Source: Bacteroidota bacterium (GTDB lineage Bacteria > Bacteroidota > Bacteroidia > Flavobacteriales > Flavobacteriaceae). From it: a stretch of DNA of 64,000 nt. Location of the stretch: assembly GCA_048498055.1 (NCBI GenBank), contig JBEHYS010000014.1, forward strand, positions 10,624-74,623. Reading direction: 5' to 3'. The notes under the pieces are model-generated. The model saw only the letters and a list, made by a program, of their open reading frames with translations, did no database searches and had not been told where the DNA came from. Both the position numbers and the translations under genes were made by a program. This document shows positions 5,168 to 63,296 of the stretch, piece by piece. Each line of letters begins with the position of its first letter. Positions within the stretch are counted from its first letter, which is position 1.

Positions 5168-6266
5168 CTATTCGTCATTTTTTTGCCCCATCATCATCAG
5201 GTAAGCTTTGAGGAATTCGTCGATTTCGCCGTTCATCACGCCGTCGACGTCGCTCGTTTCATAGCCGGTGCGGACGTCTTTCACGAGTTTGTACGGATGC
5301 ATGACGTAATTCCGTATTTGCGAACCCCATTCGATTTTCATCTTTCCCGCTTCGATGTCGGCGCGCTGCTCGAGACGTTTTTTGAGCTCGATCTCATACA
5401 ATTGCGATTTGAGCATCTGCATCGCACGCTGGCGGTTGTCGTGCTGCGAACGTGTTTCGGAACATTGGATCTGGATTCCGGTCGGCTTGTGCAAAAGCTG
5501 GACTTTGGTTTCGACCTTGTTGACGTTCTGCCCGCCGGCGCCGCTTGATCGCGCGGTCGTGATCTCAATGTCGGCCGGATTGATCTCGATTTCGATCGTG
5601 TCGTCGACCAGCGGATAAACGTACACTGAAACGAACGAAGTATGTCGCTTTGCGTTGCTGTCAAAAGGCGAGATGCGAACCAGCCGGTGCACGCCGTTTT
5701 CGCCTTTGAGATATCCGAATGCAAAATCGCCCTCGATTTCGAGCGTCACGGTCTTGATCCCGGCCACGTCGCCTTCCTGGAAATTGAGTTCCTTGACTTT
5801 GTAGCCTTGTTTTTCGGCATACATCAGATACATCCGCATCAGCATCGAAGCCCAGTCGCAGCTTTCGGTTCCGCCGGCGCCGGCCGTGATCTGCAGGACT
5901 GCGCTGAGCGTGTCGCCTTCGTCCGAAAGCATGTTGCGGAATTCGAGGTTTTCGACCTGATGGCTTGTAATGGAGTATTGCTCGTCGAGTTCTTCAACCG
6001 ACAAGTCGCCTTCTTTGTAAAAGTCGTAGGCCAACTGGAGTTCTTCAGCCATATCGACCGCTTTTTGGTAGTCGTCGACCCATTTTTTTTTGGTTCTCAG
6101 GTTCTTGACGATCGCTTCGGCTTCCCGGGCGTTGTCCCAAAATCCGGGCGCGAAGGTTTTTTCTTCCTCGTTGGTAATCTCTATCTGCTTGGCATCGATG
6201 TCAAAGATACCTCCTCAGCGCACCAAGGCGCTCTACAATACCTTTGATCTGTTCGGTATTTGTCAT
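5168..6266 (-). CDS. prfB: Peptide chain release factor 2, expressed through a programmed +1 frameshift (about 365 aa)
   Basis: ATG at 6266 gives 21 codons ([21 protein letters not shown]) ending at CTT-TGA-C (6206-6200). The +1 frame continues DIDAKQIE into the 5168-6052 ORF, which contains SPF and GGQ. Confidence 0.97.
6200..6215 (-). promoter_or_regulatory. prfB frameshift cassette: AGGAGG-TAT-CTT-TGA-C
   Basis: An internal SD-like AGGAGG (6215-6210) lies 3 nt before the slippery CTT TGA C, the canonical RF2 autoregulatory site. Confidence 0.95.
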
Positions 6267-7355: not shown

Positions 7356-7687
7356 TTATCTAAATAAATCCAATCCGGGAATATTCGGCATGCCTTCTTT
7401 TGCCACTGCGGCAAGTTCGGCTTCGTTGATCGATGTTGCTTTTTCGATCGCTTTATTCAGTACCAGAATCAGGTAATCTTCAAGTTGTTCTTTGTCCTGA
7501 AGCAGCAAATCATCAACAGTAATGCTCTTGATTTCGCGGTTGGCCGTCAAAGTTATTTTCAGCAAATCATCGCCGCTTTGTCAATAAGTATCGTGTTTAA
7601 ACGTTTTTTGGTTTCTTCGATCTTTTGCTGTCCCGAAGCGTCGGGATCGCGGAGCTTGCCCATCATGTCCATAACATCTCCAAACAT
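7356..7687 (-). pseudogene. ybaB: YbaB/EbfC nucleoid-associated protein, frameshifted (apparent 4-nt loss near 7578) and carrying an in-frame palindromic insertion
   Basis: ATG 7687 gives [36 protein letters not shown], then KAAMIC-stop at 7559. The family C-terminus ([17 protein letters not shown]...GMPNIPG) continues in another frame. The span is 332 nt, not a multiple of 3. Confidence 0.8.
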
Positions 7688-7753: not shown

Positions 7754-9889
7754 ATGAAAAACGCATCTGCGATATATTGTCTTTGTGTTATTTTTGCGGC
7801 TTCCTGCACTAAAAAAACCGACCAGAACATGGCTCAGAACATTCCCGCGCCGGTGGCGAAAAAAATCCCTAAAATCCTTGAAAAACACGGCGACAAACGC
7901 ATCGATAATTACTACTGGCTCAACGACCGCGACAATCCCGAAGTGATCGATTACCTCAAACAGGAGAACGCCTACTACAAGAAAAAAACGGCCCACACCA
8001 AAAATTTTCAAAAAGAATTATTCGAGGAAATGAAAGGCCGGATCAAGGAAGACGATGCGTCGGTGCCGTATTTCTACAACGGCTATTTTTATATTACGCG
8101 GTACGAAAAAGGTAAGGATTACCCGATTTACAGCCGCAAAAAAGGAAGTTTGTCCGCTCCGGAAGAAATACTTTTCAACTGCAACGAACTCGCGAAAGGA
8201 CATGCGTATTTTCAATTAAGCGGAATGAACATCAGCGAAGACAACAAGTTTGCGAGTTTCGGTACGGACACGGTCGGGCGGCGGATTTTTACGATCAAAA
8301 TCAAGAACCTCGAAACCGGGGAAATCCTGCCCGATGCCATCGAAAACACCAATGCTTACGCAGTTTGGGGCAGCGACAATGAGACATTGTTCTATACGCA
8401 CCAGGACAAGGTGACGCTGCGCTCCGATAAAGTCTACAAGCACAAACGCGGCAGCAACGTCTCGAAAGACGTCCTGGTTTACCACGAAAAAGACGATACG
8501 TTCAACGTTGGCGTCAACAAGAGTAAATCGCACAAATACCTGATGATCGAGTCCGAAAGCACGCTGACTTCCGAAGTCCGGATTCTCGAATCCGACAATC
8601 CGGACGGAAAATTCAGGGTGTTCCAGAAACGCAAACGCGGGCTCGAATACCACGTTTCGCATTTTGAGGACAATTTCTACATCATGACCAACAAGGACAA
8701 GGCGACGAACTTCAAGATCATGAAAACGCCTGAAAATGCAACGTCTGCGGAGAATTGGAAGGATTTGCTCCCGCATCGCGACGACGTGCTTGTGGAAGAT
8801 ATGGAAATTACCCGGAATTATCTTGCCGTGGGCGAACGCTCGAACGGGCTGAACAAGATACGCATCATTCCCTGGAAAGGAAAAGGCGACTATTACCTGC
8901 CGTTCAAAAGCGAAACTTACACGGCCTACATGACGGCCAACATCGAATTCGATACCGACATTTTGCGTTACAGTTATCAATCGCTGACCACGCCGCCGTC
9001 AGTGATCGATTTCAATATGAAAACCAGACAAAAGACGGTCCTGAAGGAGCAGGAAGTGCTCGGCGGCAAATTCGACAAAGACAATTACAAGGAAGAACGG
9101 ATTTGGGCGACGGCAAAAGACGGAACGAAAATCCCGATTTCGCTGGTTTATCGCAAAGGGATGAAAAAAAACGGAAAAAACCCGCTGCTGCAATACGCTT
9201 ACGGCTCGTATGGTTATTCGATGGATCCGGCGTTTTCTTCGACCCGGCTGTCGCTGCTCGATCGCGGTTTTATTTTTGCGATCGCGCACATACGCGGCGG
9301 CGAGGATCTGGGCCGCAACTGGTACGAAGACGGAAAACTGCTCAAAAAGAAAAACACGTTCACTGATTTCATCGATTGCTCGAAATACCTGATCGGACAA
9401 AAATACACTGCGCCGGAACATTTGTATGCCGAAGGCGGTTCGGCCGGCGGATTGCTCATGGGCGCCGTGGTAAATATGGCGCCGGAACTTTACAACGGCG
9501 TAATCGCGCAGGTTCCGTTCGTGGATGTGATCACGACGATGCTCGACGATACAATTCCGCTCACCACAGGCGAATATGACGAATGGGGCAATCCGAACAT
9601 CAAGAAATATTACGATTACATGTTGTCGTATTCGCCATACGATAACGTGGCCGCGCACGATTATCCGAATATGTATGTTTCGACCGGATTGCACGATTCG
9701 CAGGTGCAATATTGGGAACCTGCAAAATGGGTAGCGAAACTGCGTGCAATAAAAACGGGCAACCAACTGTTATTCCTTGATACTAATATGGATGCGGGTC
9801 ACGGAGGCGCATCGGGAAGGTTTGAAGCGCTGAAAGAGCTCGCCAGGGAATTCAGTTTTTTTTTCGATTTAGAAGGAATTAAGAATTGA
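7754..9889 (+). CDS. ptrB: Oligopeptidase B (S9A) with a lipoprotein-type signal peptide
   Basis: GGSAGG nucleophile, DSQVQYWEPAKW and AGHGG motifs. Start at ATG 7754 gives MKNASAIYCLCVIFAASC. Confidence 0.93.
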   Translation: MKNASAIYCLCVIFAASCTKKTDQNMAQNIPAPVAKKIPKILEKHGDKRIDNYYWLNDRDNPEVIDYLKQENAYYKKKTAHTKNFQKELFEEMKGRIKEDDASVPYFYNGYFYITRYEKGKDYPIYSRKKGSLSAPEEILFNCNELAKGHAYFQLSGMNISEDNKFASFGTDTVGRRIFTIKIKNLETGEILPDAIENTNAYAVWGSDNETLFYTHQDKVTLRSDKVYKHKRGSNVSKDVLVYHEKDDTFNVGVNKSKSHKYLMIESESTLTSEVRILESDNPDGKFRVFQKRKRGLEYHVSHFEDNFYIMTNKDKATNFKIMKTPENATSAENWKDLLPHRDDVLVEDMEITRNYLAVGERSNGLNKIRIIPWKGKGDYYLPFKSETYTAYMTANIEFDTDILRYSYQSLTTPPSVIDFNMKTRQKTVLKEQEVLGGKFDKDNYKEERIWATAKDGTKIPISLVYRKGMKKNGKNPLLQYAYGSYGYSMDPAFSSTRLSLLDRGFIFAIAHIRGGEDLGRNWYEDGKLLKKKNTFTDFIDCSKYLIGQKYTAPEHLYAEGGSAGGLLMGAVVNMAPELYNGVIAQVPFVDVITTMLDDTIPLTTGEYDEWGNPNIKKYYDYMLSYSPYDNVAAHDYPNMYVSTGLHDSQVQYWEPAKWVAKLRAIKTGNQLLFLDTNMDAGHGGASGRFEALKELAREFSFFFDLEGIKN

Positions 9890-14239: not shown

Positions 14240-14533
14240 TTACTTGGTGACAATTGTTGTTGTCGGGCTGTAAATGCCAAAAGTAATGACCGAAAGCAAT
14301 CCGTTTACAAACGAGTGTTTTACAGTCACGTTGTAATCGCTTGCACCGCCGGCCATAGCTTTCGAGTCGGAAACTCCTACAGGAATCAGGCCGTCAATCA
14401 GGTAGTGATTCCATTTTTTTACCTCGGTGTTTCCTTTTGCGCCGTTTCCTACGACACTGGTGTAAGTGTAGCATGAGGTCAGCATCATTGCAGCCGAAAA
14501 AGCAACGACTGTCATTTTGATAATTCTGTTCAT
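14240..14533 (-). CDS. Bor/Iss-family small lipoprotein
   Basis: Lipobox MLTSC; C-terminal SFVNGLLSVITFGIYSPTT resembles the Bor family; terminator hairpin AATCCGGG/CCCGGATT at about 14206-14231. Confidence 0.7.
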   Translation of the reverse strand: MNRIIKMTVVAFSAAMMLTSCYTYTSVVGNGAKGNTEVKKWNHYLIDGLIPVGVSDSKAMAGGASDYNVTVKHSFVNGLLSVITFGIYSPTTTIVTK

Positions 14534-30449: not shown

Positions 30450-30524
30450 CGGGGTGTAGCGTAGCCCGGTCATCGCGCCTGGTTTGGGACCAGGAGGTCG
30501 CAGGTTCGAATCCTGCCACCCCGA
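30450..30524 (+). tRNA. tRNA-Pro(TGG)
   Basis: CGGGGTG/CACCCCG acceptor, anticodon arm CCTGG-TTTGGGA-CCAGG, GGTTCGAATCC. Confidence 0.97.
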
Positions 30525-30530
30525 CAGACG

Positions 30531-30561
30531 AATCCCGACTGCATTGCAGTCGGGATTTTTT
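30531..30561 (+). terminator. Terminator after tRNA-Pro
   Basis: Perfect 13-bp inverted repeat AATCCCGACTGCA-T-TGCAGTCGGGATT followed by a T run. Confidence 0.8.
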
Positions 30562-30780
30562 ATTTGAGAAAAAATGCCAAGCTCGCTTGAGCATTTTTGA
30601 CGAAAATAAAAAATCCGTCAACGCTGCGAAGCAGCGTTGGATTTGCCTGAATCAATCCCAAACTCAGGATCACGCGCTTGCGCGTAATCCTGAAAATCTT
30701 CAATGTTTACTTGAATTTCTCGAGATAGTTCAAATTAAAACGACAGGGGAAATCTAAAGACAATCCTTCCGGTAAGATCC

Positions 30781-30865
30781 GCCCGCGTTAGGGATTGTAG
30801 CGGAAAGCCCGGAGCGCAGCGAGGACTTGCAGCGAAAAGCCCGGCCCGCAGGGCAACGCCCAAAA
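30781..30865 (-). repeat. Dispersed structured repeat, copy 1 (same ends as 44108-44223; central module shared with 63184-63277)
   Basis: GCCCGCGTTAGGGAT...AAAGCCCGGCC...GGCAACGCCCAAAA; strand assigned by match to the 63.2-kb copy. Confidence 0.85.
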
Positions 30866-30906: not shown

Positions 30907-30923
30907 GTGATCGCACTAGGATT
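30907..30923 (-). repeat. 17-bp duplicate of the tRNA-Arg 3' end (att-like direct repeat)
   Basis: GTGATCGCACTAGGATT at 30907-30923 and at 31022-31038. Confidence 0.9.
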
Positions 30924-31022
30924 TGCTACGATATCCTTACAGCGCTCCGCGCTGAAAAACAAAAAACCGAAAATAAATCCGAAAGCGAGCTTTCATTTAT
31001 TTTCCGGTTTTTGTTTTATTCG

Positions 31023-31096
<74 letters not shown>

Positions 31097-41900: not shown

Positions 41901-42887
41901 ATGCCAAAAACAATAAAGAAAATAGGTGTGCTGACTTCCGGTGGCGATTCGCCGGGAATGAATGCCGCCATTCGTTCGGTCGTCCGGACTTGTGCGTACC
42001 ATGGCATTGAATGCGTCGGGATTTACCGCGGTTATCAAGGGATGATCGAGGGCGATTTCAAGGAAATGGGCCCGAGAAGCGTCAACAACATCGTCAACAA
42101 AGGCGGAACGATCTTAAAATCGGCGCGCTCCAAGGAATTCATGACGCCCGAAGGCCGCAAAAAAGCGCATGAAAAACTCACGAAAGCGGGTGTCGATTCG
42201 CTGGTCGTAATCGGTGGCGACGGAAGCTTTACCGGCGCAGAGATTTTCAACAACGAATTCGGTTTCCCGGTCATGGGAATTCCCGGAACCATCGATAACG
42301 ACATTTTCGGCACGAGCCACACTTTGGGATACGATACGGCTTTGAATACTGTTGTCGAGGCAATCGATAAAATCCGCGATACGGCAAGCTCGCACAACCG
42401 GCTTTTCTTTGTGGAAGTCATGGGCCGCGATGCCGGACACATCGCACTCAATGCGGGAATCGGCGCCGGCGCCGAAGAAATCCTGATTCCTGAAGAAAAC
42501 CTCGGGCTCGACCGTCTGGTCGAATCGCTCCAGCGCAGCAAGGCTTCCGGAAAATCGTCGAGCATCGTCGTGATTGCCGAAGGCGACAAGATCGGGAAAA
42601 GCGTTTTCGGTCTCAAGGATTATTTTGAGGAGCATTTTCCGGAATACGACATCCGGGTTTCGGTGCTCGGGCACATGCAGCGCGGGGGCTCGCCAAGCTG
42701 TTTCGACCGCGTACTGGCCAGTAGATTGGGTGTAAAAGCAGTAGAATCGCTGCTTGAAGGCAAGTCGAATTTCATGGTTGGGCTCGGCGATGATAAAGTA
42801 ATCCTGACGCCGCTTGAGAAAGCCATCAAAGGAAAATCGCAGATTGACCGGGAATTGATCCGTGTGTCGGATATTATGACGACTTAA
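41901..42887 (+). CDS. pfkA: ATP-dependent 6-phosphofructokinase
   Basis: Motifs TSGGDSPGMNA, IGGDGS, TIDND, EVMGR and GHMQRGG. Confidence 0.97.
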   Translation: MPKTIKKIGVLTSGGDSPGMNAAIRSVVRTCAYHGIECVGIYRGYQGMIEGDFKEMGPRSVNNIVNKGGTILKSARSKEFMTPEGRKKAHEKLTKAGVDSLVVIGGDGSFTGAEIFNNEFGFPVMGIPGTIDNDIFGTSHTLGYDTALNTVVEAIDKIRDTASSHNRLFFVEVMGRDAGHIALNAGIGAGAEEILIPEENLGLDRLVESLQRSKASGKSSSIVVIAEGDKIGKSVFGLKDYFEEHFPEYDIRVSVLGHMQRGGSPSCFDRVLASRLGVKAVESLLEGKSNFMVGLGDDKVILTPLEKAIKGKSQIDRELIRVSDIMTT

Positions 42888-42890
42888 ATC

Positions 42891-42970
42891 TTAGTCGATG
42901 GTCGTTAGTCTATGGTCGTTGGAAGGAATCCAAAGACCAAAGACCAAAGACCAAAGACCAAAGACTAAAA
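42891..42970. repeat. Facing heptamer arrays: (TTAGTCG/ATGGTCG)x4 then (CCAAAGA)x5
   Basis: Five perfect CCAAAGA units at 42930-42964; the upstream array is partly complementary (TGGTC/GACCA, TTAGTC/GACTAA). Confidence 0.9.
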
Positions 42971-58777: not shown

Positions 58778-58837
58778 GTGACACGAGCGAAGCGACTGCA
58801 TGAGACTTTTGAAAAACAAATATTAAATTTCGAATGA
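58778..58837 (+). CDS. Putative leader peptide 1 (MTRAKRLHETFEKQILNFE)
   Basis: GTG start; its TGA overlaps the ATG of the next small ORF (ATGA). Translation not demonstrated. Confidence 0.3.
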   Translation: MTRAKRLHETFEKQILNFE

Positions 58838-58871
58838 CACGAGCGCAGCGACTGCATGAGACCTTTGAAAA
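58779..58871 (+). repeat. Two 37-bp direct repeats (35/37 identical), period 56 bp
   Basis: TGACACGAGCG(A/C)AGCGACTGCATGAGAC(T/C)TTTGAAAA at 58779-58815 and 58835-58871. Confidence 0.95.
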
Positions 58872-63183: not shown

Positions 63184-63277
63184 TTCAGGAGCCGTTTCCC
63201 GCTCTTCGCTGCAAGTCCTCGCTCGCTTACTCGCTGTGGGCTTTCCGCTTCTCCCGACGCTTCGGGACCGGGCTAGG
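63184..63277 (+). ncRNA. Dispersed structured element resembling the Flavo-1 RNA motif, interrupted by a 17-bp palindrome
   Basis: TCAGGAGCC...CCCGCT...CGCTGCAAGTCC-hairpin-GGGCTTTCCGCT...GGGCTAG. Family assignment is from memory, not a search. Shares 19-bp and 12-bp exact matches with 30781-30865. Confidence 0.55.
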
Positions 63278-63296
63278 GCTTTCCAATTCACGACAT

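What the first reader, a model, noticed from the sequence alone, without database searches (positions are those of the whole stretch)
7630..7646. Identical 17-bp palindrome TCCCGACGCTTCGGGAC inserted in a gene and in an unrelated repeat 55 kb away
Seen: the exact 17-mer occurs in ybaB (minus strand, 7646-7630) and at 63252-63268. In ybaB it reads in frame as D-P-D-A-S-G, about 4 extra residues relative to the GKLKETQQK pattern I recall for the family. In both places a 14-nt core CCCGACGCTTCGGG sits between T and A. Removing it at 63 kb leaves CCGCTTCTACCGGGCTAG, an uninterrupted stem. The tRNA-Pro terminator has related ends (ATCCCGAC...GTCGGGAT). Inference: an ultra-small mobile hairpin, possibly targeting T^A, that can add peptide insertions to proteins. 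It is conceptually like Rickettsia palindromic elements but much shorter. No mobilising enzyme is visible in the window.
Basis: partly seen in the sequence, partly recalled or inferred. Interest (0 to 1): 0.65.

Follow-up and report, generated by a model that had tools for sequence, protein, structure and literature searches.

The report
Tiny palindromic repeat inserted in ybaB
A 16-18-base DNA palindrome that is scattered through Flavobacteria-type genomes sits inside a gene here and adds four amino acids; the same cassette is present or absent in another protein of related bacteria, so it behaves like one of the smallest mobile DNA pieces known.

Summary
TCCCGACGCTTCGGGAC occurs exactly twice, at 7630-7646 (-) and 63252-63268 (+). 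In ybaB it coincides with a lineage-specific gain of 12 nt (4 aa) that every aligned homolog and every syntenic relative lacks.

It is not a private coincidence. The 17-mer belongs to a palindromic cassette family, (G)TCCCGA-N4-TCGGGA(T/C). The family is strongly over-represented in Flavobacteriales and is multicopy in a few genomes of other phyla. About 93% of copies are intergenic, with no strand bias. Copies often sit at the tip of other repeats: Flavo-1, GUCCY-type hairpins and partial tRNA duplicates.

Independent filled and empty alleles exist in Gillisia MnmE (PDASG, or PEASG in the other orientation). These also show a gain of 12 nt immediately 5' of CAG.

Three details are not. There is no T^A target and no target duplication. 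About 4-6 target bases are replaced. The 63-kb host is a weak Flavo-1-like element, not an interrupted stem. No transposase lies in the window or recurs near copies elsewhere.

ybaB is also frameshifted and is probably decaying. The copying mechanism remains inferred. I rate it a new variant of the REP/RPE/SDR kind, of moderate to high interest.

The parts
7630..7647 (.). Cassette copy A. It reads GTCCCGAAGCGTCGGGAT on the + strand. Within ybaB (minus strand) it reads gaT CCC GAC GCT TCG GGA Cag = D-P-D-A-S-G.
   Evidence: Exact match. Hairpin in the DNA fold. 4-aa insertion relative to homologs. Empty in syntenic relatives, a net gain of 12 nt.
7356..7687 (-). ybaB/ebfC (PF02575), split into a 42-aa and a 69-aa ORF by a net loss of 4 nt near 7562-7572, in addition to the cassette insertion near the start of helix alpha-1.
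   Evidence: ORF list. Alignment to homologs. The same split is called in the independent MAG contig L001, which is 99.96% identical. PDB alignment to YbaB 1J8B/1PUG.
63251..63268 (.). Cassette copy B. It reads GTCCCGAAGCGTCGGGAG on the minus strand. It lies in the aroC / dicarboxylate-symporter intergenic region.
   Evidence: Exact match. Flanking genes identified by Pfam. Hairpin in the RNA fold.
63191..63278 (-). Weak Flavo-1-like repeat that hosts copy B. The cassette occupies the position of the consensus ccGAUuG, 5' of AAGCGGAAA.
   Evidence: Rfam RF01705, 17.6 bits, E = 0.26, below the gathering score of 42. It shares a 19-mer with the 30.8-kb element.
30776..30850 (+). Second Flavo-1-like repeat, without the cassette. 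It serves as an empty comparison for the 63-kb element.
   Evidence: Rfam RF01705, 29.3 bits, E = 1.5e-4, below the gathering score. Sequence.
30533..30555 (+). tRNA-Pro terminator whose stem uses the same TCCCGA/TCGGGA arms around a longer 11-nt centre. It is followed by a T run.
   Evidence: Pattern search. Sequence. tRNA-Pro at 30450-30525. Whether it is related to the family is inferred.

Best explanation
The 17-mer is one copy of a very small palindromic repeat cassette, (G)TCCCGA-N4-TCGGGA(T/C), 16-18 nt long with a 6-7 bp stem and a 4-nt loop. The family is dispersed, mainly intergenic, in Flavobacteriales, and is multicopy in a few genomes of other phyla.

New copies are made at the DNA level, in either orientation, by a short-patch event. 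About 4-6 target bases are replaced by the cassette. There is no target duplication and no transposase encoded nearby. The donor is presumably another copy in the same genome, here for example the identical copy in the Flavo-1-like element at 63 kb. Cassettes land or persist mostly in dispensable DNA: tips of existing stem-loops, other repeats and dead tRNA duplicates. Inside genes only in-frame outcomes survive. All three coding sites resolved at DNA level show a gain of 12 nt (4 aa) immediately 5' of CAG.

In this window one such event put DPDASG near the start of helix alpha-1 of YbaB. The gene also carries a frameshift, so it is probably a decaying gene and not a protein with a new function.

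Shown: family membership, over-representation, empty orthologous sites, filled and empty alleles in a second protein, both orientations, the net gain of 12 nt, and the absence of a linked gene.

Inferred: the copying mechanism (templated patch or trans-acting enzyme), the direction of transfer between the two window copies, and loss of YbaB function.
For: (1) Exact 17-mer twice, 0.01 expected. Three TCCCGA..TCGGGA palindromes against 0.31 expected.

(2) ybaB has DPDASG where 17 aligned homologs and 8 syntenic metagenome loci have K/R-E-T/A. Nearly all of the 120 best hits are 107 aa. No other protein in a database of 5.8 billion shares the insert.

64 are Flavobacteriales with about 38% GC. 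My arithmetic from composition expects fewer than 8 hits even if all 596 Gb had that composition. 17 genomes have the exact 17-mer in two or more separate 8-kb tiles. These include Thermodesulfovibrionia, Nitrospirae, Falkowbacteria, Acidiferrales and Balneolaceae.

(4) With the seed copies masked, TCCCGA-N4-TCGGGA is the commonest 6-bp/4-nt-loop hairpin in 491 kb of Flavobacteriales tiles: 16 copies with 12 different loops, about 0.01 expected.

(5) 64 of 69 copies are intergenic, with no orientation bias relative to flanking genes.

(6) Contexts are unrelated to one another. They include the apex or 5' part of bona fide Flavo-1 elements (L006, L010, L063), the apex of GUCCY-type hairpins, AT-rich tandem repeats, and partial tRNA duplicates in which the cassette replaces D- or T-arm bases. 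Flanks are complementary more often than in controls (p = 0.002).

(7) Gillisia MnmE. P0122 (475 aa) has SADKF-NPDASGQN-SE. P0123 (95% identical, 471 aa) has SADKF-KTQS-SE. P0124 and P0125 are filled. P0132 carries PEASG, the opposite orientation, and P0140/P0141 carry PDASG/LDASG at a second site that is empty in P0139, P0143 and P0144. The DNA reads AAAACT|CAG in empty alleles and AATCCC-GACGCTTCGGGA-CAG in filled ones. In the window, the ybaB relatives read GAAACC|CAA and the window reads GATCCC-GACGCTTCGGGA-CAG. On a tree of the rest of the protein, each filled allele has an empty allele as nearest neighbour.

(8) No recurrent gene family lies within 2.5 kb of 126 copies. No mobile-element gene was found in the window.
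Against: The copying mechanism is not observed, and no donor-to-recipient event is caught.

Target replacement is inferred from orthologs that are 65-95% identical. Insertion followed by point changes cannot be separated from true replacement, and the left arm differs among the filled MnmE alleles (TCCC, TACC, TCCA).

The patchy MnmE pattern could come from homologous recombination between strains and not from repeated insertion (one search shows a mosaic identity profile).

An unbiased 336 kb from 80 relatives contains none. The family is therefore lineage-patchy, and its copy number in the source genome is unknown: only 2-3 copies in 64 kb.

Some hits in high-GC genomes lie in ordinary coding sequence and are probably chance.
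Confidence: 0.62

Rival explanations
1. Trans-mobilised miniature transposon. A HUH/Y1 (RAYT or IS200/IS605-like) or other transposase encoded elsewhere in the genome recognises the hairpin in single-stranded DNA and inserts a 14-nt core at T^A.
For: The cassette is hairpin-shaped, dispersed, mostly extragenic and orientation-neutral, as REPs are. Some inverted doublets resemble REPINs: L002, L052 and L068. Multicopy occurrence in unrelated phyla would fit horizontal spread of an enzyme-and-substrate pair.
Against: Empty sites have no TA at the junction and no duplication. Four to six target bases are lost instead. There is no GTAG or CGTC tag. No Y1, GIY-YIG or other recurrent gene lies within 2.5 kb of 126 copies, and none was found in the window. 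IS200/IS605 and RAYT chemistry, as I know it, inserts next to a fixed 4-5-nt target without deleting it.
Confidence: 0.15
2. No element-specific machinery. The cassette spreads as filler copied during repair or replication, by template switching or microhomology-mediated templated patching from abundant extruded hairpins. Alternatively it spreads by ectopic gene conversion between hairpin tips.
For: Target bases are replaced with no duplication. The shared junction bases are short: A on the left and CAG on the right at three coding sites. Copies prefer tips of existing stem-loops and sit nested inside other palindromes. No gene is linked. This is the mechanistic reading I favour inside the best explanation. 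It is listed separately because it can be tested on its own.
Against: It does not explain why this one sequence, including its loop, is identical across phyla. It does not explain why three coding events all give exactly +12. Intergenic flanks show no clear microhomology.
Confidence: 0.3
3. A functional motif kept or created by selection at each site, for example a bidirectional terminator or RNA-stabilising hairpin, or a binding site for a dimeric protein (half-site TCCCGA, 4-nt spacer). On this view it is not mobile DNA.
For: Some copies form the core of terminator-like stems followed by T runs: L057, L073 and the tRNA-Pro terminator in the window. The variable centre with constant arms looks like a dimer-binding site. 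Some orthologous intergenic sites keep the cassette while the flanks are only 75-90% identical, though that set is biased by how it was chosen.
Against: Selection on point mutations cannot create a 12-nt block inside ybaB or MnmE. Coding copies occur in both orientations and are polymorphic among near relatives. There is no strand bias relative to transcription. Most copies lack T runs. Function and mobility are not mutually exclusive.
Confidence: 0.1
4. Chance identity or a sequencing or assembly artefact.
For: Several other exact repeats of 17 nt or more exist in the window. A uniform model gives about 0.2 such pairs per 64 kb by my arithmetic.
Against: The match coincides exactly with a lineage-specific indel. 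It is present in an independent MAG and in a Logan contig of a third strain with two nearby SNPs. It recurs in complete isolate genomes, with mutated derivatives inside genes. It matches no sequencing adaptor that I know.
Confidence: 0.02

Closest known systems
REP / REPIN elements with RAYT transposases (Bertels & Rainey 2011, PMC3116915; Di Nocera et al. 2013, PMC3733652)
   Same: Short GC-rich palindromes, dispersed and mostly extragenic. They sometimes occur as inverted doublets and occasionally inside genes. They are combined with other motifs into mosaic repeats, as in BIMEs.
   Different: The cassette is 16-18 nt, against 20-40 nt. It has no unpaired GTAG or CGTC tag or CCA tail. No RAYT was found. 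Insertion replaces target bases. It occurs in Bacteroidota and in several other phyla.
Rickettsia palindromic elements (RPE), as summarised in PMC3733652
   Same: Palindromic repeats inserted in frame into conserved protein genes, where they add a peptide segment.
   Different: By my recollection RPEs are roughly 100-150 nt and add tens of residues. This cassette adds 4 residues. The host lineage is different and the sequences are unrelated.
Cyanobacterial small dispersed repeats, SDR (Elhai et al. 2008, Genome Res 18:1484; cited in PMC3116915, PMC5861425 and PMC2884548; the paper itself could not be opened)
   Same: Very small (about 21-27 nt) repeats thought to be mobile. From memory, they are found nested in other repeats and in hairpin contexts, with no known enzyme.
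   Different: The sequences and the phylum differ; SDRs are reported only in Nostocaceae. This cassette is shorter and is a near-perfect palindrome. In-frame protein insertions with filled and empty alleles are documented here.
Flavo-1 RNA motif (RF01705) and the GUCCY-hairpin motif (Weinberg et al. 2010, PMC2864571 and its supplement)
   Same: These are the repeats that most often host the cassette. Flavo-1 hits in F. psychrophilum lie sense or antisense to transcripts, or outside them (PMC9723704), which fits DNA repeats. GUCCY hairpins share the ATCCYGA..TCRGGAT type of stem and are also read through in MnmE as HAELVSAS.
   Different: The cassette is a separate module. It occurs without either host. 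It lies at different positions within Flavo-1 (the apex in L006 and L010, the 5' part in the window). It lacks the GUC..CY flanks at both window sites.
Correia/NEMIS and other bacterial MITEs with a TA target
   Same: Small non-autonomous repeats that can be co-transcribed or inserted in genes.
   Different: MITEs are 70-300 nt with terminal inverted repeats and a target duplication. None of these features is present here.

Membership tests
REP/REPIN (RAYT-associated) | Imperfect palindrome of 20-40 nt in high copy number, mostly extragenic | tested here: inconclusive
   The cassette is extragenic in 64 of 69 Flavobacteriales copies and over-represented. However it is only 16-18 nt, and the copy number per genome could not be measured: 2-3 copies in this 64-kb window.
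REP/REPIN (RAYT-associated) | Conserved unpaired GTAG or CGTC tag at one end (PMC3733652) | tested here: not met
   The flank table shows only a closing G..T/C pair and a weak C(-3)/G(+3) pairing signal. CGTC occurs only inside the loop and stem in one orientation.
REP/REPIN (RAYT-associated) | A RAYT (Y1 HUH) gene in the genome, typically flanked by the repeat | tested here: inconclusive
   None was found in the window, and no recurrent gene lies within 2.5 kb of 126 copies. Whole genomes could not be searched.
REP/REPIN (RAYT-associated) | Inverted doublets (REPINs) as the replicating unit | tested here: inconclusive
   Three exact inverted doublets, in L002, L052 and L068. Most copies, including both in the window, are singletons.
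Rickettsia palindromic elements | Palindromic repeat inserted in frame in protein genes | tested here: met
   ybaB, and two MnmE sites with filled and empty alleles.
Rickettsia palindromic elements | Element of roughly 100-150 nt with RPE family sequence, in Rickettsia | tested here: not met
   16-18 nt with an unrelated sequence, in Bacteroidota.
   Empty and filled DNA compare as AAAACT|CAG against AATCCC-GACGCTTCGGGA-CAG, and GAAACC|CAA against GATCCC-GACGCTTCGGGA-CAG. There is no TA, no duplication, and target bases are changed or lost.
Flavo-1 RNA (RF01705), host of the 63-kb copy | Score at or above the Rfam gathering threshold of 42 bits | tested here: not met
   17.6 bits at 63191-63278 and 29.3 bits at 30776-30850. 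These are Flavo-1-like relatives, not certified members. Bona fide Flavo-1 copies (43-76 bits) carry the cassette in L006, L010 and L063.
GUCCY-hairpin motif (Weinberg 2010) | Hairpin flanked directly by GUC on the 5' side and CY on the 3' side | tested here: not met
   Window copy A reads ctG-UCCCGA..UCGGGA-Ucg and copy B reads ggG... on the canonical strand. Neither has GUC immediately followed by the stem and then CY. L043 and L092 (GTCA-TCCCGA..) do fit it.
Cyanobacterial SDR | 21-27-nt SDR1-8 sequence families of Nostocaceae | not testable with these tools
   The paper and its sequences are not held. The resemblance (tiny size, nesting, no enzyme) rests on memory and on citing papers.

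The most novel reading that the evidence does not exclude
A 16-nt palindrome is a self-propagating unit in its own right. It would be the smallest mobile DNA cassette so far seen in bacteria. It would spread by targeted replacement at sites of the form A-R-Y-Y|C(AG), without a target duplication and without a linked transposase. It would be shared, with an identical sequence, by Flavobacteriales, Nitrospirota, candidate-phyla-radiation bacteria and others. It would repeatedly write 4-residue PDASG or PEASG loops into conserved proteins such as YbaB and MnmE.
Probability: 0.3. Interest if true: 0.8.

Novelty: new variant of a known kind. Interest (0 to 1): 0.6.

Why it matters
If it holds, this cassette pushes down the lower size limit of DNA that behaves as a mobile, dispersed element. 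It does so in a major environmental phylum where such repeats are barely described.

It also provides natural filled and empty alleles, in ybaB and at two MnmE sites, that make the insertion chemistry testable. The replacement of a few target bases, with no duplication, points to a route other than classical transposition.

Practical consequences:
- It explains odd 4-residue PDASG/PEASG loops and spurious small ORFs in Bacteroidota annotations.
- It suggests that at least part of the Flavo-1 and GUCCY 'RNA motifs' are mosaic DNA repeats.
- It flags a source of contig breaks and indel polymorphism in metagenome-assembled genomes.

Tried and rejected
- Chance: rejected.
- Artefact: rejected. The cassette is present in an independent MAG, in a third strain's contig, and in complete genomes.
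- T^A target with a 14-nt core: rejected by the empty-site DNA.
- GIY-YIG (COG2827) association, suggested by the GUCCY literature: a motif scan of all loci found it only once, 5 kb away from the cassette.
- Any recurrent neighbouring gene: none.
- Phage carriage: 1 hit in 2.9 million viral contigs, at or below my rough chance estimate.
- Oriented RNA motif: no strand bias. Rfam finds nothing at copy A.
- Direct ungapped stem extension: weak, 8% against 0.5% in controls. A duplex-energy test shows only modest enrichment.
- Conservation at orthologous intergenic sites: discarded, because both members of each pair were selected for having the 17-mer.
- PDB alignments of MnmE and PyrD: too distant to define the indels.
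- Search for other YbaB proteins with the insert: only the window's own 42-aa fragment was found.
- Literature search for the sequence itself: no paper.
- The Elhai 2008 SDR paper could not be opened.
- Recombination or de novo insertion in MnmE: the identity profile is mosaic and does not decide between them.

Full report
**Observation.** The 17-mer TCCCGACGCTTCGGGAC occurs exactly twice in the window, at 7630-7646 on the minus strand and 63252-63268 on the plus strand. No further copy appears even with two mismatches, against 0.01 expected in shuffles. It is a 6-bp palindrome, TCCCGA/TCGGGA, around a 4-nt centre, and it folds as a hairpin in both contexts. The window also contains other exact repeats of 17 nt or more, so the identity alone would not be convincing. 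Its position is what matters.

**The ybaB copy.** ybaB lies on the minus strand at 7356-7687. Translated, the region reads GKLR-DPDASG-QQK. All 17 aligned homologs read GKL[RK]E[TA]QQK, and nearly all of the 120 best database hits are 107 aa long.

- Eight metagenome loci in which ybaB sits next to the same ltaE gene read ggN aaa ctN aaa gaa acc/gct caa/cag, which is GKLKE(T/A)Q. The window reads ggc aag ctc cgc gaT CCC GAC GCT TCG GGA Cag.
- The site is therefore empty in every relative, and the window has a net gain of 12 nt.
- The insert falls near the start of helix alpha-1 in an alignment to solved YbaB structures.
- No other protein in a collection of 5.8 billion shares the insert.
- The gene is also broken. 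A net loss of 4 nt near 7562-7572 splits it into 42-aa and 69-aa ORFs.
- Both the insert and the frameshift are present in an independent MAG contig that is 99.96% identical over 9.6 kb. A Logan contig from a third strain, with two nearby SNPs, also carries the hairpin.

**The 63-kb copy.** This copy lies between aroC and a dicarboxylate symporter gene, inside a repeat that Rfam aligns weakly to Flavo-1 (RF01705, 17.6 bits, gathering score 42). A second Flavo-1-like element at 30776-30850 scores 29.3 bits and lacks the cassette. In the alignment the cassette takes the place of the consensus ccGAUuG, just 5' of AAGCGGAAA. The whole region folds no better than shuffles, z = +0.79.

- 64 of the loci are Flavobacteriales, whose tiles average 38% GC.
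- From that composition the 17-mer has a probability of about 6e-12 per position. Even the whole collection at that composition would give fewer than 8 hits (my arithmetic).
- Seventeen genomes carry it in two or more separate 8-kb tiles. These include non-Bacteroidota: Thermodesulfovibrionia, a Nitrospirae MAG, Falkowbacteria, Acidiferrales and Balneolaceae.
- Hits inside ordinary coding sequence of high-GC genomes look like chance.
- Viral contigs hold a single hit.
- With the seed copies masked, TCCCGA-N4-TCGGGA is still the commonest 6-bp/4-nt-loop hairpin in 491 kb of Flavobacteriales tiles. There are 16 copies with 12 different centres, where about 0.01 is expected. The family is thus defined by its arms, and the perfect palindrome TCCCGAAGCTTCGGGA is one of its members.
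- In an unbiased 336 kb from 80 relatives chosen through ltaE, there is not one copy. The family is lineage-patchy, and this window, with 2-3 copies in 64 kb, belongs to a carrier lineage.

**Behaviour.**

- 64 of 69 Flavobacteriales copies are intergenic, and orientation is random with respect to neighbouring genes. This argues for a DNA-level element and against an oriented RNA.
- The contexts are unrelated to one another. They include the apex or 5' part of bona fide Flavo-1 elements and the apex of GUCCY-type hairpins, a motif defined by Weinberg et al. 2010.
- They also include AT-rich tandem repeats and terminator-like stems. In six loci from several phyla the cassette sits in partial duplicates of a neighbouring tRNA gene, where it replaces bases of the D or T arm.
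- Flanks are complementary more often than in controls, though only modestly.
- No gene family recurs within 2.5 kb of the 126 copies, and a GIY-YIG gene appears only once, 5 kb away.
- Pfam scans of 50 of the window's 57 ORFs of 80 aa or more found housekeeping families or no family at all, and no recognisable mobile-element gene. The seven ORFs not sent to Pfam include four already identified in L001 (PhoU_div, PHO4, RF-2, LtaE).

**Independent filled and empty alleles.** One genome hit lay in mnmE of a Gillisia MAG. Its closest homologs differ in length in steps.

- P0122 (475 aa) reads SADKF-NPDASGQN-SE. P0123 (95% identical, 471 aa) reads SADKF-KTQS-SE. P0124 and P0125 are also filled, with one mutated arm base each.
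- At a second site, inside a larger insert, P0140 and P0141 read PDASG and LDASG. P0132 reads PEASG, which is the cassette in the opposite orientation. P0139, P0143 and P0144 are empty at that site.
- The DNA confirms this. At site 1, empty alleles read AAAACT|CAG and filled alleles read AATCCC-GACGCTTCGGGA-CAG. At site 2, empty reads AAACCAGTT|CAG and filled reads AAATCTCCCGA(A/T)GC(T/C)TCGGGA-CAG.
- All three coding sites, ybaB included, gain exactly 12 nt, have CAG (or CAA) on the right, show no TA target and no duplication, and have 4-6 target bases changed or replaced.
- ybaB (GAAACC|CA) and MnmE site 1 (AAAACT|CA) even share the target AAAC-Y-CA.
- On a tree built from the rest of the protein, each filled allele has an empty allele as nearest neighbour. 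This means repeated gain, repeated loss, or recombination. The mosaic identity profile cannot decide among these.
- The same loop also reads through a GUCCY-type hairpin (HAELVSAS). In P0139 a further palindrome is nested at that hairpin's apex.

**How it most likely works.** The following are shown: a dispersed palindromic family, empty orthologous sites, polymorphic in-frame insertions in both orientations, replacement without duplication, and no linked gene.

I infer that new copies arise by a short-patch copying event from another copy. The route is either templated repair or template switching at hairpin-prone DNA, or an unlinked enzyme acting in trans. I also infer that selection leaves only in-frame (+12) outcomes in genes and tolerates copies at stem-loop tips, in repeats and in dead tRNA duplicates.

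Which of the two window copies, if either, was the donor cannot be told. Because ybaB is also frameshifted, the peptide insertion here is probably carried by a decaying gene.

**Comparison with known kinds.** The cassette works like REP/REPIN elements, Rickettsia RPEs and cyanobacterial SDRs, but it fails the defining tests of each:

- no GTAG or CGTC tag, and no RAYT found;
- far shorter than RPEs;
- a different sequence and phylum from SDRs, whose paper I could not open.

It is not a MITE. At both window sites it lacks the GUC..CY flanks of the GUCCY motif. The published remark that Flavo-1 hits lie sense, antisense or outside transcripts in F. psychrophilum fits a DNA repeat. A full-text search for the sequence found no paper.

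**Verdict.** The cassette is a new, unusually small variant of the palindromic dispersed-repeat kind.

**Main caveats.** The genome scan was truncated. The loci were chosen because they contain the 17-mer. The copy number in the source genome is unknown. The mechanism is unobserved.

Noticed in passing
window 7556-7575 (within ybaB, minus strand): ybaB is split into 42-aa and 69-aa ORFs by a net loss of 4 nt: LID-KA[gc]DDLLK, where homologs have LIDE(Q/K)S(S/A)D(G/D)LLK. The same split appears in an independent MAG contig, so it is probably a real pseudogene or split gene.
   Followed up: partly
window 30907-30923 and 31022-31038: A 17-nt direct repeat, GTGATCGCACTAGGATT. It is the 3' end of tRNA-Arg(TCT), duplicated 115 nt downstream of the gene and next to the Flavo-1-like element. 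It could be an att-like scar, or the same kind of partial tRNA duplicate that carries the cassette in other genomes.
   Followed up: no
window 9530-9550 and 42554-42574: An exact 21-nt inverted repeat, ATCACGACGATGCTCGACGAT, shared by the oligopeptidase B gene and the phosphofructokinase gene. The chance expectation is about 1e-3 by my arithmetic. It remains unexplained.
   Followed up: no
window 58779-58815 and 58835-58871: Two 37-nt direct repeats, 95% identical and spaced 56 nt apart (TGACACGAGCG[A/C]AGCGACTGCATGAGAC..), in the intergenic region upstream of a GT4 glycosyltransferase gene.
   Followed up: no
window 42898-42965: A heptamer array, (CCAAAGA)5, preceded by partly complementary GGTCGTT units, between pfkA and gap. 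It may form a long intergenic hairpin.
   Followed up: no
window 14240-14533 (minus strand): A 97-aa ORF matching the phage lambda Bor lipoprotein family (PF06291, 88 bits), in an otherwise housekeeping neighbourhood.
   Followed up: no
L207/L208/L209 (Gillisia mnmE, about 930-1010 nt into the gene): The MnmE G-domain loop is a hotspot for several palindromic repeats read in frame. A GUCCY-type hairpin, GTCATGCTGAACTTGTTTCAGCATCTC, is read as HAELVSAS. In P0139 its apex carries another palindrome, TTCCGATAGATATCGGAA (+15 nt). Relatives carry further inserts such as HPELVSGS and SPEGG.
   Followed up: partly
L033 7659-7751; L081 5345-5420; L007 7180-7260; L004 880-960: Partial tandem duplicates of tRNA genes (Arg, Leu, Met, Val) in MAGs of different phyla. 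In each, the 17-mer replaces D-arm or T-arm bases of the dead copy. In L033 the 45-nt unit repeats up to the end of the contig.
   Followed up: partly
window 5168-6140 (minus strand): prfB (RF-2; PCRF and RF-1 domains) appears as a 294-aa ORF with a short upstream ORF. This arrangement is compatible with the usual programmed +1 frameshift of this gene. It was not examined.
   Followed up: no
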